The notes beneath the pieces are model-generated. The model was not told where the DNA came from and did no database searches. It was given only the letters and a program-made list of their open reading frames with translations. From Rubripirellula sp. (GTDB taxonomy: Bacteria > Planctomycetota > Planctomycetia > Pirellulales > Pirellulaceae), in assembly GCA_965216875.1 (NCBI GenBank), contig OZ244207.1:1024001-1088000 (forward strand): a stretch of 64,000 nucleotides of DNA. Reading direction: 5' to 3'. The position numbers and the translations under genes were made by a program. This document shows positions 19,748 to 22,240 of the stretch, piece after piece; position 1 is the stretch's first letter; each line of letters starts with the position of its first letter.

Positions 19748-20089
19748 ATGAACAAGAAAAAGAAACCTGCCAAGTCTGCTGACACGACCAAGCCGGTTGG
19801 AAGCGTCCAAGCGTTTGTCGATGCGGCCGAATGCCTCAAAGCACTCGCCCATCCAGTCAGGCTGCGGATTGTCCAGTTGCTGCTCCACGGCCAGTTCACC
19901 GTGGGGGAGATCGCCGAGGATTGCGAGATTCCTGACAATGTCGCGTCGGAACACCTTCGGTTGCTGCAGCGTTGTGGGTTTTTGATCAGCGAGCGCCAAG
20001 GACGCCGGGTCTACTACCAAGTGGCGGAACCGCATTTGGAGCAAATGATGGCTTGTATCGAAGGTCGATTTTTGGCCAGCGGCGCCTGA
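19748..20089 (+). CDS. ArsR/SmtB family transcriptional repressor
   Basis: LKALAHPVRLRIV...TVGEIAE...ASEHLRLL...RQGRRVYY. Confidence 0.93.
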   Translation: MNKKKKPAKSADTTKPVGSVQAFVDAAECLKALAHPVRLRIVQLLLHGQFTVGEIAEDCEIPDNVASEHLRLLQRCGFLISERQGRRVYYQVAEPHLEQMMACIEGRFLASGA

Positions 20090-20110
20090 GCGTCTCTCTT
20101 ATTTTGAACG

Positions 20111-20134
20111 ATATATCGTCACCTCACGAGATAA
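20111..20134 (+). promoter_or_regulatory. Second, degenerate ArsR operator
   Basis: ATATATCG-N8-CGAGATAA has the same spacing as ACATATCG-N8-CGATATGT upstream of the ArsR gene. Confidence 0.55.
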
Positions 20135-20170
20135 CGACAGCTGACTTCAAGCAAACTTGAAAGGAAGAAA

Positions 20171-20722
20171 GTGATGAACACCATCTCGCCAAAACGGCTC
20201 GCAGACACCAACGCATCGTCGCCCGTTGAGTTGATCGACGTACGGACGCCGGTGGAGTATCGCGAGGTTCATGCAACGCCAGCGCGCAACGTTCCTCTCG
20301 ACACGCTCGATCCTGAGGCGCTGATGGGTGGCCGCAATGGGAATGCCGGTGAGCCGCTTTATGTGATTTGCAAATCGGGCGGTCGCTCGACTCAGGCTTG
20401 CCAAAAGCTGATCGCCGCCGGACATGACAACATCGTCAACGTCGAAGGAGGCACAGACGCATGGGTTGATGCGGGGTTGCCGGTGCAGCGTGGAAAGAAA
20501 GCGATGGCACTGGAGCGGCAGGTACGCATTGCCGCTGGAGCGTTGGTCCTGATTGGCGTCGCACTCTCCTTCTTCAATCCTTACTTCCTGGGCCTCTCCG
20601 CCTTTGTCGGTGCAGGGTTGGTCTTTGCCGGTGTCACAAACACCTGTGGCATGGGAATGCTGCTGGCCAAGATGCCATGGAATCAGGTGAGAGGCTGCGA
20701 CAACGGATCATGCTCGGTTTAG
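20171..20722 (+). CDS. Rhodanese domain + DUF2892 membrane protein (YgaP-like sulfurtransferase)
   Basis: LIDVRTPVEY, active-site CKSGGRS, and C-terminal ERQVRIAAG...AGVTNTCGM...KMPWN. Confidence 0.9.
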   Translation: MMNTISPKRLADTNASSPVELIDVRTPVEYREVHATPARNVPLDTLDPEALMGGRNGNAGEPLYVICKSGGRSTQACQKLIAAGHDNIVNVEGGTDAWVDAGLPVQRGKKAMALERQVRIAAGALVLIGVALSFFNPYFLGLSAFVGAGLVFAGVTNTCGMGMLLAKMPWNQVRGCDNGSCSV

Positions 20723-20801
20723 CCCCGTACTCGTGCTCGTAATCGGCCTGAGCAATTTCGGCCGGATTGATAACGAGTACCGCAATGCTGAGCACGAATT
20801 C

Positions 20802-20825
20802 GTAGGGTGTGTGCTTGCACGCACC
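20802..20825 (+). repeat. REP-like family E (GTAGGGTGTGTGCTTGCACGCACC)
   Basis: Identical copy at 21254-21277 and an inverted variant at 21292-21315. Confidence 0.85.
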
Positions 20826-20861
20826 AACACGAGATTGATGCGCGAAAGCACACGAAAGAGA

Positions 20862-20922
20862 GACGTGAGACGAGTGGACGCGAAGAACCGCTCTGGTATC
20901 GCCGACGCACTCGTCCCACATC
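20862..20922 (-). ncRNA. Long hairpin directly 3' of the tRNA-like element
   Basis: 15-bp stem GATGTGGGACGAGTG / CACTCGTCTCACGTC with two G-U pairs that form only on the minus strand, followed by a pyrimidine run. Confidence 0.5.
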
Positions 20923-20926
20923 GCAG

Positions 20927-21002
20927 TGACCAAGGAGGGAGTCGAACCCCCAAATTCACGAGCCTCTCATGCTCGCCGCTTTGCCGGTTTGCGTACTTGG
21001 TC
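20927..21002 (-). tRNA. Non-canonical tRNA-Leu(GAG)-like RNA (possible pseudo-tRNA or tRNA mimic)
   Basis: Cloverleaf: GACCAAG/CTTGGTC acceptor + A73, D arm CGC-AAACCGGCAAA-GCG, anticodon arm CGAGC-ATGAGAG-GCTCG, T arm GGGGG-TTCGACT-CCCTC. Deviations are a 7-nt variable region, A at position 32 and no encoded CCA. Confidence 0.8.
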
Positions 21003-21030
21003 GCAAGAAGTAGTGTCCTGATGGCGCAAC

Positions 21031-21061
21031 AAAAAAGGCTCGATGCCAGTGACATCGAGCC
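21031..21061 (-). terminator. Intrinsic terminator (attenuator) upstream of the tRNA-like RNA
   Basis: GGCTCGATG-TCACTGG-CATCGAGCC-TTTTTT on the minus strand. Confidence 0.85.
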
Positions 21062-21089
21062 GCTACGAATTGCATTCGTTTTGCCGATC

Positions 21090-21176
21090 TCACACGGGCC
21101 TATCGCCTCCGCTCTCACCACATGAGAGTGAATCAAGCGAGCAGGAGGTGCAGTTGTATGGATAACGGCTATTCAT
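21090..21176 (-). CDS. Putative 28-aa attenuator leader peptide MNSRYPYNCTSCSLDSLSCGESGGDRPV
   Basis: Manual translation, below the ORF-track cutoff. The stop lies 28 nt before the terminator and inside the predicted antiterminator arm. Confidence 0.6.
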   Translation of the reverse strand: MNSRYPYNCTSCSLDSLSCGESGGDRPV

Positions 21177-21211
21177 GATTCAATGCGATTCTTGGGGGTC
21201 TGTTGAAAGGT

Positions 21212-21238
21212 AAAGACAATCGCCCCTCGCGAAGGTTC
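21212..21238 (-). promoter_or_regulatory. Putative ECF-sigma promoter GAACCT-N15-GTCTTT
   Basis: Resembles the RpoE-type GAACTT-N16-TCnAA consensus and sits about 35 nt upstream of the leader ATG. Confidence 0.5.
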
Positions 21239-21253
21239 ACGCATAAAAGCAGC

Positions 21254-21315
21254 GTAGGGTGTGTGCTTGCACGCACCGATCGCGTGACATTGGTGCGTGC
21301 ACGCACACACCCTAC
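21254..21315. repeat. Inverted pair of REP-like family E
   Basis: GTAGGGTGTGTGCTTGCACGCACC ... GGTGCGTGCACGCACACACCCTAC. Confidence 0.85.
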
Positions 21316-21340
21316 GAAAGAACGCCTGGACAATTATCCG

Positions 21341-22240
21341 TCAAACGCGGATGGCGACGCGCAGTTTGGCGCTTCGCGAGCGTGGGTTCTCGGCGACTTC
21401 GCGATCGCTCGGTCGAAGCGGTTTCTTGGTCATCACTTGCCAGCGTTCATCGTCGCTAAATGCATTCTTGACGATGCGGTCTTCGAGCGAATGAAAACTG
21501 ATCACCGCAACGCGGGCACCGCTTGAAAGCCAATCGGGCGCCGACTTGAGTGTGCGTTGCAGGATATCAAGTTCTTCATTCACCTTGATTCGCAGCGCTT
21601 GAAAGGTACGCGTTGCCGGGTGAATGTCATGATTCTTGCTGCGTGGAACACAGCGTCGGCAAATGTCGACCAAGTCGTTGACCGTTCGCACCGGACTTTC
21701 GTTACGCCGCTGGGCAACGATTTCGCGGGCGATCCGGCGACTGTAGCGTTCTTCGCCATATTGATAGATCACGTCGGCGATCGCTTGCTCTTTGTTCCAG
21801 GCGAGCCAATCAGCAGCACTGCAACCATTGTCGGGATCAAACCGCAAGTCGAGCGGGCCATCTTCGGTGAAACTAAACCCACGCGAGCGATCGGCAAGCT
21901 GATCACTCGAAAGGCCGAGATCCAGCACGAGTGCGTCGGCCGCTTCCAGCTCTGTCGCCGCCAACGCTCGCGGTGCCGCTTCGTAGCTTCCCAAGAAAAG
22001 GCTGAGTCTCGGGTCGTGTGTTTCGGTCTCGAAACGCTCGGTGACGGCGGGATCGCGATCGAGCGCAATCAAGTGCTTGAGGTGATCGCCCAGTGTGTCG
22101 ATCAGTCGTTTCGAATGTCCGCCGCCGCCGTAGGTGCCGTCGACGACGATTTTGGGCAGGGCGATGCCATCACCAATGTCTTCCGCGACCCAATGAACGA
22201 TTTCATCGGGCATGACCGAAACGTGACAACTTTGTGTCAT
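21341..22240 (-). CDS. rsmH: 16S rRNA m4C1402 methyltransferase
   Basis: DGTYGGGGHS, DLGLSSDQL, HPATRTFQALRI.VN.EL, VISFHSLEDR and NPRSRSAKLR. Start overlaps the upstream stop (ATGA). Confidence 0.96.
   Translation of the reverse strand: MTQSCHVSVMPDEIVHWVAEDIGDGIALPKIVVDGTYGGGGHSKRLIDTLGDHLKHLIALDRDPAVTERFETETHDPRLSLFLGSYEAAPRALAATELEAADALVLDLGLSSDQLADRSRGFSFTEDGPLDLRFDPDNGCSAADWLAWNKEQAIADVIYQYGEERYSRRIAREIVAQRRNESPVRTVNDLVDICRRCVPRSKNHDIHPATRTFQALRIKVNEELDILQRTLKSAPDWLSSGARVAVISFHSLEDRIVKNAFSDDERWQVMTKKPLRPSDREVAENPRSRSAKLRVAIRV

What the first reader, a model, noticed from the sequence alone, without database searches (positions are those of the whole stretch)
20862..21238. Leader-peptide attenuator whose only output is a non-canonical tRNA-like RNA plus a hairpin
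Seen on the minus strand, in order: ECF-like promoter (21238-21212), 28-codon ORF (21176-21090), intrinsic terminator (21061-21031), tRNA-Leu(GAG)-like cloverleaf (21002-20927) and a 15-bp hairpin (20922-20862). No protein gene follows before the convergent rhodanese gene. Three mutually exclusive pairings can be read directly. (1) Codons 3-7 (GCCGTTATCCATAC, 21169-21156) pair with GTGTGAGATCGGC (21095-21083). (2) That same segment, which contains the leader stop codon, can instead pair with the terminator 5' arm CTCGATGTCAC (21059-21049), enclosing a small ACGAAT/ATTCGT hairpin. (3) The terminator itself. Established: this logic matches ribosome-stalling attenuators that control ABC-F or WhiB7/WblC genes, where early stalling gives read-through. 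Inference: translation stress or ribosome-targeting antibiotics switch on an RNA-only effector (decoy, mimic or spare tRNA) rather than a protein.
Basis: partly seen in the sequence, partly recalled or inferred. Interest (0 to 1): 0.88.

Follow-up and report, generated by a model that had tools for sequence, protein, structure and literature searches.

The report
Translation-sensing gate before a spare tRNA
A tiny translated reading frame and a stop/go RNA switch sit between a stress-type promoter and a spare leucine tRNA gene, the same layout that heads long spare-tRNA gene arrays across this bacterial order, so these tRNAs are probably made only when ribosomes falter.

Summary
The tRNA is real (ARAGORN Leu-GAG; Rfam 44.9 bits). 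It is a solitary copy of the short-variable-loop tRNA-Leu(GAG) otherwise found inside long tRNA arrays.

The main result is comparative. The window's leader has no full-length homologue, but its architecture recurs in front of tRNA arrays across the order. That architecture is a GAACC-N16-GTCT promoter, a short uORF whose UGA stop lies in a strand complementary to the terminator's 5' arm, an intrinsic terminator, and a tRNA a few to about 110 nt later.

- I extracted about 90 such leaders, including three others in this genome.
- In 49 of 50 typical family leaders the uORF stays open across 13 in-frame length classes.
- The terminator shows covariation. The antiterminator is nearly invariant, with one compensatory pair that is seen in the window copy.

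Best reading (about 0.6): a ribosome-dependent transcription attenuator gates a spare tRNA. A ribosome at the stop codon masks the antiterminator and transcription ends; a lagging ribosome gives read-through.

No expression data exist. I found no published description in seven literature searches. This scan earlier noted analogous leaders in phages.

The parts
21234..21238 (-). -35-like element GAACC of the conserved leader promoter
   Evidence: Sequence read. GAACC-N16-GTCT is exact in 50 of 53 family leaders, present with N16/17 in type B leaders, and present in 24 of 29 leaders from other families. In this genome it precedes only 4 of 50 tRNA unit heads: the three arrays and this unit.
21211..21217 (-). 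-10-like element GTCTTTA; the predicted start of transcription is near 21205
   Evidence: Same calls as the -35 element. GTCT is invariant in alignments A1 and A3. The transcription start is inferred, not observed.
21090..21176 (-). 28-codon uORF (leader peptide); the UGA stop is at 21092-21090
   Evidence: Listed and translated. Its two Leu codons are CTT (codon 14) and CTC (codon 17), both read by anticodon GAG. The stop aligns with the invariant TGA of the family.
21156..21169 (-).
   Evidence: The domain has z -1.82, not significant. It is not conserved in relatives.
21083..21098 (-). Region 2: the 5' strand of the antiterminator, containing the uORF stop codon
   Evidence: It ties for best duplex partner of the terminator 5' arm at -14.7 kcal/mol. 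One pair shows a compensatory change, C-G to U-A, relative to the family.
21065..21079 (-). Small ACGAAT/ATTCGT hairpin enclosed by the antiterminator
   Evidence: Relatives have a short hairpin at the same place.
21031..21061 (-). Intrinsic terminator: 11-bp stem, 3-nt loop, T6. Its 5' arm is region 3 of the switch.
   Evidence: Across the family 99.6% of cells pair, 3 pairs carry compensatory changes, and 0 of 500 shuffles reach the observed values.
20926..21002 (-). tRNA-Leu(GAG) with a 7-nt variable loop, A73 and no encoded CCA; a solitary copy of the array-type tRNA
   Evidence: It is 87% identical to the array copy at G000 628816-628892 and 92% identical to a same-genus array copy. In an 8-sequence family alignment, 11 of 22 pairs carry compensatory changes and the window copy keeps all pairs.
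20862..20922 (-). Long hairpin 3' of the tRNA, followed by an interrupted U-rich stretch; a possible unit terminator or 3' stabiliser
   Evidence: -34.8 kcal/mol, z -3.8. It is unique in the genome. No shared counterpart was seen at the ends of the three arrays. Its function is inferred.

Best explanation
The unit at 21238-20862(-) is a ribosome-dependent transcription attenuator that gates a spare tRNA-Leu(GAG) of the type found in tRNA arrays. It is a divergent, single-tRNA member of a leader family that heads long tRNA arrays throughout the order.

**Proposed sequence of events.**
1. Transcription starts at a GAACC-N16-GTCT promoter, which looks ECF-sigma-like.
2. The 28-codon uORF is translated.
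3. The UGA stop lies inside region 2 (21098-21083). Region 2 can pair with the 5' arm of the terminator (region 3) to form an antiterminator about as stable as the terminator itself.
4. If the leading ribosome keeps pace and sits at or near the stop codon when region 3 emerges, region 2 is masked. The terminator then forms and transcription ends 28 nt before the tRNA.
5. If ribosomes lag or stall earlier in the uORF, region 2 is free. The antiterminator forms and RNA polymerase reads through into the tRNA.

**Shown:** the elements, their conservation, the maintained reading frame, the terminator covariation, and the complementarity of region 2 to region 3.

**Inferred:** that the uORF is translated in this organism, the direction of the switch, the sigma factor, and that the tRNA is charged with leucine and used.
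For: **1. Anatomy.** All elements are at the stated coordinates.

**2. No room for a separate tRNA promoter.** Only 28 nt separate the T-tract from the tRNA here. In type B relatives the tRNA starts 5-52 nt after the T-tract. The sigma-70 scan found no promoter-like site in 20400-21800.

**3. Homologous architecture elsewhere.**
- 53 unique family leaders, counting the window. The exact promoter is present in 50 of 53. The uORF stop lies 31-38 nt before the terminator. The first tRNA is Phe(GAA) in 49 of 53.
- 12 type B leaders with a different terminator but the same GUGAC/GUGUCAC core; 11 of 12 have a uORF.
- 29 leaders from 11 other families: 24 with the promoter, 28 with a uORF ending at the core TGA, 28 with a tRNA within 150 nt.
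- The core covariance model hit 76 of 151 genomes of the order, in 22 of 30 families. In this genome it hit exactly four places: the three array heads and this unit. The window copy was in the training set.

**4. The frame is maintained.** 49 of 50 typical leaders keep ATG..TGA open across 13 length classes (33-52 codons), all in frame.

**5. Terminator.** 99.6% of cells pair, 3 pairs carry compensatory changes (34 cells), and 0 of 500 shuffles reach these values.

**6. Antiterminator.**
- 97.1% of 414 cells pair, against 45.7% or less when the partner is slid. One compensatory pair occurs, in the window copy and in L032.
- The most stable partner of the terminator 5' arm anywhere in the leader covers the uORF stop in 52 of 60 leaders (the window ties) and in 24 of 29 leaders from other families.
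- Local antiterminator energy is -17.9 kcal/mol in the window and about -15 to -26 in relatives. Terminators are -18.5 to -25.8.

**7. Masking.** Placing a ribosome footprint at the stop codon removes the antiterminator in every leader modelled. This holds by construction of the overlap.

**8. The tRNA looks functional.** Compensatory changes preserve every stem.

**9. Known biology of arrays.** The long tRNA array of Anabaena is silent and is induced under translational stress (PMC8421152, passages read).
Against: - **No expression data.** No RNA run holds the stretch. The transcription start, termination and read-through are all unobserved.
- **No close homologue of the window's own leader.** None was found in 61 relatives or 301 family genomes, nor with the two metagenome patterns. 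The uORF peptide is not recognisably the family consensus. A 28-codon ORF alone is not improbable.
- **Weak antiterminator covariation.** There is one compensatory pair in 2 of 46 sequences. The helix is otherwise invariant, which neither proves nor refutes pairing.
- **No third-position excess in the uORF.** Entropy per codon position is 0.56, 0.65 and 0.64. The peptide itself is therefore not under ordinary protein selection. Some conservation may reflect RNA structure.
- **Folding does not give a clean three-state switch.** In the window the antiterminator is favoured on the truncated transcript even without a ribosome. In about half of the relatives region 2 is predicted to pair instead with a 5'-UTR GUCAC motif.
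- **Codon match not significant here.** The uORF's match to the tRNA it controls is 2 of 27 codons, P 0.28.
- **Not a general feature of the lineage at this site.** Same-genus genomes have no tRNA downstream of rsmH.
Confidence: 0.6

Rival explanations
1. Relic. The unit is a rearranged fragment of an array head (a leader plus one tRNA) that landed between two REP-like repeats. It is no longer regulated or used, and its intact look reflects recent origin.
For: - The unit is flanked by copies of a palindromic repeat present in hundreds of copies.
- It is absent downstream of rsmH in 5 of 5 relatives checked.
- The uORF peptide is diverged from the consensus.
- The antiterminator has a central G-G mismatch that the consensus lacks.
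- Decayed leaders exist: L067 has a broken uORF and no promoter, and L126 is followed only by what reads as the 3' end of a tRNA (its T arm), with no tRNA that ARAGORN calls in the 3-kb locus.
Against: - Every functional element is intact: the invariant promoter bases, an open uORF ending at the family's TGA, and a perfect terminator.
- All tRNA stems are kept through compensatory changes.
- A compensatory change keeps the antiterminator pair.
Confidence: 0.15
2. Sigma-factor control only. An ECF-type sigma factor decides expression. The terminator is a constitutive damper or a processing/stability hairpin, and the uORF has no sensing role.
For: - Promoter motif and spacing are the most strictly conserved parts.
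- In this genome the motif is tied to the tRNA units.
- In Anabaena, control of the array is at the promoter, through a repressor (PMC8421152 passages; PMC10272220 listing).
Against: - It does not explain why 49 of 50 leaders keep the frame through 13 length classes.
- It does not explain why the stop codon always lies in the strand complementary to the terminator arm, across two unrelated terminator sequences.
Confidence: 0.1
3. Small-protein gene. The uORF encodes a functional peptide whose mRNA ends at the terminator. The tRNA is made only by unregulated leak-through.
For: Across the order the uORF has conserved N-terminal (SSIQER / SSRLEQ-like) and C-terminal (PLRL / PRLM-like) motifs.
Against: - There is no third-position excess.
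- The window peptide lacks the motifs.
- The tRNAs abut the terminator and have no promoter of their own.
- The one protein-family scan that touched the uORF was of the 142-aa ORF 20708-21136(-). It overlaps the uORF's 3' part in another reading frame and matched nothing. The uORF peptide itself was not scanned.
Confidence: 0.08
4. Decoy or mimic RNA, one of the first reader's options. The cloverleaf is not a decoding tRNA but binds or titrates a factor such as a nuclease, a synthetase or a T-box-like sensor.
For: - The variable loop is short for a Leu tRNA.
- Array relatives have C33 in 4 of 8 copies.
- Rfam's default filters missed the window copy.
- Arrays have been proposed as anti-defence elements (PMC12803027, passages).
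Against: - The cloverleaf is complete, with U33, A73, a canonical T-loop and stems kept by covariation.
- Five of the six array Leu genes folded in this genome have the short form, covering anticodons GAG, CAA, UAA and UAG (twice). The CAG copy keeps the long arm.
- Array tRNAs are reported as aminoacylated in Anabaena (PMC8421152; the passage seen only introduces that test).
Confidence: 0.04

Closest known systems
whiB7 uORF transcription attenuator of mycobacteria (PMC10274678; abstract read)
   Same: A promoter-proximal uORF sits upstream of an intrinsic terminator. Stalling in the uORF is thought to cause antitermination. The system is activated by knock-down of tRNAs and aminoacyl-tRNA synthetases. 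The uORF sequence varies between species while the architecture is kept.
   Different: The output here is a tRNA or a tRNA array, not a transcription factor. The promoter is ECF-like. The stop codon is embedded in the antiterminator strand. There is no experimental evidence here.
Classical leader-peptide attenuators of amino-acid operons (trp, his, leu, pheA; recalled, with PMC1183508 and PMC3082878 seen only in search listings)
   Same: Alternative hairpins compete (2:3 against 3:4). A ribosome that reaches the stop masks region 2 and favours termination. An upstream stall favours read-through.
   Different: There is no run of regulatory codons in the window's uORF. The partner that sequesters region 2 is unclear: codons 3-7 here, a 5'-UTR motif in relatives. 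The controlled product is the decoder itself rather than a biosynthetic enzyme.
L-array (trn operon) of Anabaena sp. PCC 7120 and its repressor TrcR (PMC8421152, passages; PMC10272220, listing only)
   Same: Redundant tRNA genes lie outside the housekeeping set. They are silent normally and are induced when translation is impaired. The paper lists Planctomycetes among the phyla that carry such arrays.
   Different: Regulation there is by direct repeats at the promoter and a repressor. Here a uORF/terminator switch lies between the promoter and the tRNAs. The window holds a single tRNA, not an array.
Antibiotic-responsive ribosome-stalling attenuators of resistance genes (bmrCD PMC4191407, mef/mel PMC4335068, ermB PMC8274638; search listings only)
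   Same: A leader peptide plus a terminator or alternative structures respond to ribosome stalling.
   Different: Those systems use drug-dependent arrest peptides and control proteins. No arrest motif or drug dependence can be shown here.
Leader-ORF/terminator cassettes before phage tRNA clusters, noted earlier in this scan (e1-5725793, e1-6107749, e1-6112425, e1-5824790, e1-5749140; AI notes, unchecked)
   Same: A small ORF ends in or near a stop/go switch immediately upstream of tRNA genes.
   Different: Those are in phage genomes with other promoters and sequences. My exact-pattern scans of viral contigs for the Pirellulales terminators found none. The relationship is by analogy only.

Membership tests
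Ribosome-dependent (leader-peptide) transcription attenuator | A short translatable ORF between the promoter and the terminator | tested here: met
   A 28-codon ATG ORF at 21176-21090. The frame is kept in 49 of 50 typical leaders, 11 of 12 type B leaders and 28 of 29 leaders from other families. Translation itself is not observed.
Ribosome-dependent (leader-peptide) transcription attenuator | An intrinsic terminator between the uORF and the regulated gene, with no separate promoter for that gene | tested here: met
   The terminator is supported. The gap to the tRNA is 28 nt here and 5-52 nt in type B leaders. No sigma-70-like site was found, and the family promoter motif does not occur in the gap.
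Ribosome-dependent (leader-peptide) transcription attenuator | An antiterminator that excludes the terminator and overlaps the ribosome's footprint | tested here: met
   Region 2 contains the stop codon and pairs with the terminator 5' arm: -20.0 kcal/mol, z -2.57. The stop-codon window is the best partner in 52 of 60 leaders (the window ties) and in 24 of 29.
Ribosome-dependent (leader-peptide) transcription attenuator | Covariation support for the alternative helix | tested here: inconclusive
   97.1% of cells pair, but only 1 pair (2 cells) carries a compensatory change. Shuffle counts are 12 of 500 and 5 of 500. The helix is mostly invariant.
Ribosome-dependent (leader-peptide) transcription attenuator | Regulatory codons matched to what is controlled | tested here: inconclusive
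   Window: 2 of 27 codons are CUY, P 0.28. Two small-array leaders match their own tRNA sets strongly: 15 of 36 (P 9e-7) and 15 of 29 (P 3e-6). For the array-1 leader of this genome, a hand count gave 13 of 28 against an estimated 39% expected, so no enrichment.
Ribosome-dependent (leader-peptide) transcription attenuator | Read-through changes when ribosomes stall | not testable with these tools
   No RNA run holds the stretch.
L-array tRNA genes (Santamaria-Gomez et al. 2021, PMC8421152) | Member of a long, contiguous tRNA gene array | tested here: not met
   It is the only tRNA in the 64-kb window. The nearest arrays lie 0.39-0.45 Mb away.
L-array tRNA genes (Santamaria-Gomez et al. 2021, PMC8421152) | Sequence homology to array tRNAs rather than to the housekeeping isoacceptor | tested here: met
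   It is 87% identical to the array Leu(GAG) of this genome. In 6 of 6 relatives' loci examined, the homologue lies inside an array. The housekeeping Leu(GAG) at 3165451 has a long arm.
Canonical bacterial tRNA-Leu (class II) | A long variable arm (stem-loop) | tested here: not met
   The variable region is a 7-nt unpaired loop. The five housekeeping Leu tRNAs are 84-87 nt long and have a variable stem.
Canonical bacterial tRNA-Leu (class II) | Cloverleaf, A73 discriminator and a Leu-type D arm (3-bp stem, large loop with GG) | tested here: met
   That these features serve as LeuRS identity elements is recalled, not tested.
ECF-sigma-type promoter | A -35 element containing AAC and a -10 element containing (C)GTC, about 16-17 nt apart (consensus recalled) | tested here: met
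   GAACC-N16-GTCT here, with the same motif and spacing in relatives. Dependence on an ECF sigma factor is not testable with these tools.
Known cis-regulatory RNA families (T-box, riboswitches, Rfam leaders) | A match to a curated covariance model | tested here: not met
   In 20000-22000, with E up to 10, only the tRNA exceeded a gathering score. Nothing was found in related leaders either.

The most novel reading that the evidence does not exclude
The Pirellulales leaders may form a class of tRNA-supply feedback attenuators. In this reading the uORF acts as a test track whose codons sample the tRNAs encoded downstream. Loss of particular tRNAs, for example to anticodon nucleases of defence systems or toxins, or general ribosome slowing, would then directly switch on structurally variant back-up tRNAs. 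The window would hold the minimal case: one leader with CUU and CUC as its only Leu codons, controlling one back-up tRNA-Leu(GAG).
Probability: 0.25. Interest if true: 0.9.

Novelty: new variant of a known kind. Interest (0 to 1): 0.77.

Why it matters
Long arrays of redundant tRNA genes are widespread and poorly understood. The only studied case, in Anabaena, is silent until translation is stressed and is controlled by a repressor.

A conserved uORF/terminator switch in front of such arrays across a whole bacterial order would be a second, mechanistically direct route. The ribosome itself would report translation trouble, and the response would be more tRNA.

This gives a concrete and easily mutated cis-element for testing two things: what these arrays are for (stress back-up, or counter-defence against tRNA-cleaving nucleases), and whether short-arm tRNA-Leu species are charged and used. 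The single-tRNA unit in this window is the simplest natural version for reporter work.

It would also extend leader-peptide attenuation, known for biosynthetic, resistance and regulator genes, to genes whose product is an RNA of the translation machinery.

Tried and rejected
- **Homologues of the window's own leader.** BLAST-type searches over 61 relatives and 301 family genomes matched only the tRNA or the terminator. A search with the closest leader (L032) over 401 genomes found nothing beyond the terminator. Two metagenome pattern scans found 0 stretches.\n- **Synteny.** rsmH in 5 relatives has neither a tRNA nor the rhodanese gene downstream. This gives no comparative information on the locus.\n- **Expression.** No RNA holder was listed for the stretch. 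I did not use read laying, because the only possible RNA runs held none of the sampled words.\n- **Viral origin.** Exact type A and type B terminator patterns found 0 matches in viral contigs.\n- **A dedicated sigma factor next to the arrays.** Pfam on 16 flanking ORFs showed one Sigma70_r2 protein 1.8 kb from array 2 and nothing consistent. The five other genome hits of the extended promoter motif are about what chance predicts, by my rough estimate of about 3.4 expected, and lead to no informative genes.\n- **An internal leader upstream of the array Leu(GAG).** None was found. The gap holds an odd tRNA-like cloverleaf instead.\n- **A shared hairpin at array ends resembling 20922-20862.** None was seen.\n- **The 5'-UTR GUCAC motif as a conserved region 1.** 87% of cells pair, with no covariation. 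I dropped the test, so that idea is untested here.\n- **Ribosome-position folding as a discriminating test.** It does not separate early, middle and no-ribosome states. Only the stop-codon state is clear, and that follows from the overlap itself.
Full report
**1. What is in the window**

On the minus strand I read, in this order:
- a REP-like palindrome at 21316-21253;
- GAACC at 21238-21234 and GTCTTTA at 21217-21211, 16 nt apart;
- a 28-codon ATG ORF at 21176-21090;
- a small hairpin at 21079-21065;
- an intrinsic terminator, with an 11-bp stem at 21061-21037 and T6 running to 21031;
- 28 nt of spacer;
- a tRNA at 21002-20926;
- a long hairpin at 20922-20862;
- a second copy of the palindrome at 20853-20799.

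ARAGORN calls the tRNA Leu(GAG), and it is the only tRNA in the window. Rfam's tRNA model scores it at 44.9 bits, E 7.9e-8. No other family in 20000-22000 approaches its threshold.

The upstream gene is rsmH (MraW methylase, E 2.4e-86). The downstream convergent gene is a rhodanese/YgaP-like protein. The ORFs that overlap the unit match nothing. The palindrome is a dispersed repeat: most of the 371 BLAST pieces from this region fall on it.

Folding gives these values:

| Element | Energy (kcal/mol) | z-score | Shuffles folding as well |
|---|---|---|---|
| Terminator | -19.2 | -6.25 | 0 of 200 |
| Antiterminator, 21099-21046 | -20.0 | -2.57 | 1 of 200 |
| 3' hairpin | -34.8 | -3.8 | 0 of 200 |

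Of the three pairings, only (1) is statistically unremarkable.

**2. What the tRNA is**

- **The genome's tRNA set.** The genome is 8.26 Mb in one contig and has 99 ARAGORN tRNAs. They include three dense arrays at about 591-594.7 kb, 606.7-608 kb and 628-632.6 kb.
- **Housekeeping against array Leu genes.** The five dispersed Leu tRNAs are 84-87 nt long and have a variable stem-loop. Five of the six array Leu genes are 73-77 nt with a short variable loop, as is the window gene. The sixth, the array Leu(CAG), keeps the long arm.
- **Closest relatives.** The window tRNA is 87% identical to the array Leu(GAG) at 628816-628892 and 92% identical to an array copy in a same-genus genome. In 6 of 6 related loci examined, the homologue lies inside an array.
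- **Structure.** An alignment of 8 such genes gives a cloverleaf in which 11 of 22 pairs carry compensatory changes. The window copy keeps every pair, A73 and the conserved 7-nt variable loop.

It is therefore a genuine member of a conserved short-arm Leu(GAG) family. It is redundant with the housekeeping gene at 3165451, and here it stands alone. Whether LeuRS charges it cannot be tested with these tools.

**3. The leader is not unique in kind**

- **No full-length homologue.** The leader has none in this genome, in 61 relatives or in 301 family genomes. In 5 of 5 relatives checked, rsmH has neither a tRNA nor the rhodanese gene downstream.
- **The lead from the terminator.** Its terminator matched about 30-nt stretches at about 88% identity in a dozen genomes. 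In the three of five fetched loci that contain tRNAs, these stretches lie 58-106 nt upstream of the first tRNA of an array. One more lies in this genome, before the tRNA-Phe at 608012.
- **Type A leaders.** I followed the lead with a typical leader as query and an exact-pattern scan of one genome per species. All 36 hits from that scan come from Pirellulaceae- or Planctomycetota-labelled records. Together these gave 53 unique leaders, counting the window.
  - 50 of 53 have GAACC-N16-GTCT, 177-287 nt before the terminator.
  - Where a uORF was found, its stop lies 31-38 nt before the terminator.
  - The first tRNA follows the terminator match by 31-109 nt. It is Phe(GAA) in 49 of 53.
  - A caveat: its figure of 94 of 401 genomes overstates the number of leaders. 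The query included the first bases of tRNA-Phe, and many weak hits cover only those bases.
- **Type B leaders.** A second type has a different terminator (a CCCGGUGUCAC... stem) but the same promoter, the same uORF-stop arrangement and the same GUGAC/GUGUCAC core.
  - It heads array 1 of this genome.
  - It also heads arrays in 11 further genomes.
  - 11 of 12 have a uORF, and the tRNA starts only 5-52 nt after the T-tract.
- **Spread across the order.** A covariance model of the core, from region 2 through the terminator, hit 76 of 151 genomes drawn from the order, in 22 of 30 families. In this genome it hit exactly four places: the three array heads and the window unit. The window copy was in the training set. 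Of the 29 best loci, all from other families:
  - 24 have the promoter;
  - 28 have a uORF ending at the core TGA;
  - 28 have a tRNA within 150 nt, which is Phe in 25 and Glu in 3.
- **Promoter specificity in this genome.** Of 50 tRNA unit heads, only these four carry the promoter motif upstream. GAACC-N16-GTCT as such is not enriched genome-wide: 68 occurrences against 66.8 expected.

**4. Evidence that the uORF matters**

- **Frame kept.** In 49 of 50 typical family leaders the frame from the conserved ATG to the conserved TGA is open, although length varies over 13 classes from 33 to 52 codons, all in frame. The one exception (L067, same genus) has also lost its promoter.
- **No sign of selection on the peptide.** Nucleotide entropy is about equal at the three codon positions (0.56, 0.65, 0.64). 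This pattern indicates selection for being translated to a fixed end point, not for the protein sequence. It also means that part of the conservation may be RNA-level.
- **The window's uORF.**
  - It keeps the end point. Its TGA aligns with the invariant TGA.
  - Its peptide does not match the consensus.
  - By eye it shares a short DSL..SCG..G.D stretch with the array-1 leader of the same genome.
  - By eye it shares a Y-x-C-x-S-C stretch with L032.
  - I give neither resemblance any statistical weight.

**5. Evidence for the switch**

- **Terminator.** It is strongly supported. 99.6% of 506 cells pair, three pairs carry compensatory changes in 34 cells, and 0 of 500 shuffles reach these values.
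- **Antiterminator conservation.**
  - Region 2, with the stop codon inside it, pairs with the terminator's 5' arm in 97.1% of 414 cells.
  - When the partner is slid, at most 45.7% of cells pair.
  - Several one-sided changes keep wobble pairs.
  - There is one compensatory pair, C-G to U-A, found in the window copy and in L032.
  - 12 and 5 of 500 shuffles reach the observed values.
  - The helix is mostly invariant, so covariation is weak.
- **Antiterminator as best partner.** An independent test is more telling. Among all 18-nt windows of each leader, the most stable partner of the terminator 5' arm covers the uORF stop codon in 52 of 60 leaders. The window copy ties at -14.7 kcal/mol. The same holds in 24 of 29 leaders from other families, even though the terminator sequences differ.
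- **Comparable stability.** Local antiterminator energies are -17.9 kcal/mol in the window and about -15 to -26 elsewhere. Terminators range from -18.5 to -25.8.
- **Effect of a ribosome at the stop.** A footprint placed at the stop codon removes the antiterminator in every leader, which follows from the overlap.
- **What folding does not resolve.**
  - On the truncated window transcript the antiterminator is already favoured without any ribosome.
  - In about half of the relatives, region 2 is predicted to pair instead with a conserved 5'-UTR GUCAC motif.
  - The 'no translation' state therefore remains open.

**6. Mechanism proposed**

The elements, their order, their conservation and their complementarities are shown. 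The rest is inferred, as follows.

Transcription starts from an ECF-like promoter. The resemblance to the ECF consensus is recalled, not tested. The uORF is translated. A ribosome that reaches the UGA covers region 2, so the terminator forms 28 nt before the tRNA. A ribosome that lags or stalls upstream leaves region 2 free to capture the terminator's 5' arm, and RNA polymerase reads into the tRNA.

This is the logic of the trp-type attenuators and of the whiB7 uORF attenuator. The latter is activated by knock-down of tRNAs and synthetases (PMC10274678, abstract). It also fits what is known of long tRNA arrays. In Anabaena the array is silent, and translational stress induces it through promoter repeats and a repressor (PMC8421152 passages; PMC10272220 listing).

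**7. Does the leader sense the specific tRNA it controls?**

| Leader | uORF codons cognate to its own tRNA set | P | Note |
|---|---|---|---|
| L032 (small array) | 15 of 36 | 9e-7 | cross-match to L034's set: 6 of 36, P 0.44 |
| L034 (small array) | 15 of 29 | 3e-6 | cross-match to L032's set: 10 of 29, P 4e-4; the two sets share Leu codons |
| Window | 2 of 27 | 0.28 | both Leu codons are CUY |
| Array 1 of this genome | 13 of 28 | not computed | hand count; about 39% expected by my estimate; no Lys or Ile codon, although the array starts with Lys and Ile tRNAs |

The first three rows come from one search, which used this genome's codon usage as the expectation. The result is two for and two neutral or against, so I leave the question open.

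**8. Rivals**

- **A recently stranded relic.** The unit is flanked by repeats, absent in relatives and has a diverged peptide. Against this, every functional element is intact.
- **Sigma-factor control with a passive terminator.** This does not explain the maintained frame or the position of the stop codon.
- **A small-protein gene with leak-through.** There is no third-position signal, and the tRNAs have no promoter of their own.
- **A decoy RNA.** The cloverleaf is complete and its stems are kept by covariation.

**9. Novelty**

Seven full-text searches found no description of a uORF/terminator leader before tRNA genes or arrays. The L-array paper, in the passages I read, and a 2026 paper on mycobacterial arrays mention none. 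I did not open the supplements.

Earlier notes of this scan describe analogous leader-ORF switches before phage tRNA clusters, and a 635-nt RNA near the head of this genome's arrays. These are unchecked AI notes, and I found no sequence link to viral contigs.

I class the finding as a new variant of a known kind. The mechanism type is leader-peptide attenuation, which is known. The output (spare tRNAs), the promoter type and the order-wide conserved family appear to be undescribed.

**10. Verdict**

- Confidence that this unit works as a translation-sensing attenuator of a spare tRNA is about 0.6. The main limits are the lack of any RNA data and the lack of close homologues of this particular copy.

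Noticed in passing
window 21253-21316 and 20799-20853: Two copies of a roughly 60-nt palindromic (REP-like) repeat bracket the unit. Most of the 371 BLAST pieces from this region against the genome fall on it. Rfam gives only chance microRNA-like hits on it.
   Followed up: partly
L003:1418-1505, L004:1398-1477, L016:1575-1746, L006:1580-1737, and G000 about 628897-628965: The gap just upstream of the array Leu(GAG) gene holds a conserved tRNA-like cloverleaf. It has a CAU anticodon loop (CUCAUAA) and an unusual TGCGACT T-loop. ARAGORN does not call it.
   Followed up: no
alignment A2 (L017, L003, L016, L004): Four of eight array-type tRNA-Leu(GAG) genes have C instead of the near-universal U at position 33. 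The window copy has U33.
   Followed up: no
G000 3282034-3282109 and 3442059-3442132; L146; L140; L016 and L153: ARAGORN makes several unusual calls. In this genome it reports a tRNA with anticodon CUA (labelled Pyl) and one with a 4-base anticodon. In arrays of relatives it reports a 'Stop(tta)' tRNA, an Asp(atc) tRNA and tRNAs with the 4-base anticodon cggg. These are possible suppressor or recoding tRNAs, or miscalls.
   Followed up: no
L001 (same DNA as window 20926-21002): Rfam in gathering mode, with its default filters, did not report the window tRNA. The permissive mode scored it at 44.9 bits. Standard annotation may therefore overlook array-type tRNAs.
   Followed up: partly
alignments A1 and A4, all leaders: Every leader's uORF ends in UGA, and in nearly all of them the next base is C. 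As I recall, UGA-C is a weak termination context in E. coli. It could lengthen ribosome dwell on region 2. The window copy has UGA-G.
   Followed up: no
L067 (G001, same genus) and L126 (G267): These look like decayed or disrupted leaders. L067 has lost its promoter and its uORF. In L126, ARAGORN calls no tRNA anywhere in the 3-kb locus, and the bases right after the terminator read like the 3' end of a tRNA (its T arm).
   Followed up: partly
L115:138-6348 (G000 595087-601297, upstream of array 1): Genes next to array 1 include a HEPN_Swt1 protein, DUF5343, DUF3606 and a small RelA/SpoT-domain protein. This is a defence-island-like neighbourhood.
   Followed up: no
uORFs of leaders from other families (L132-L160): Across the order the uORF peptides share an N-terminal motif like LRPSSIQER and a C-terminal PLRL, although the codon-position test showed no third-position excess in the family set. 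The cause could be RNA structure, a nascent-peptide effect or both.
   Followed up: partly
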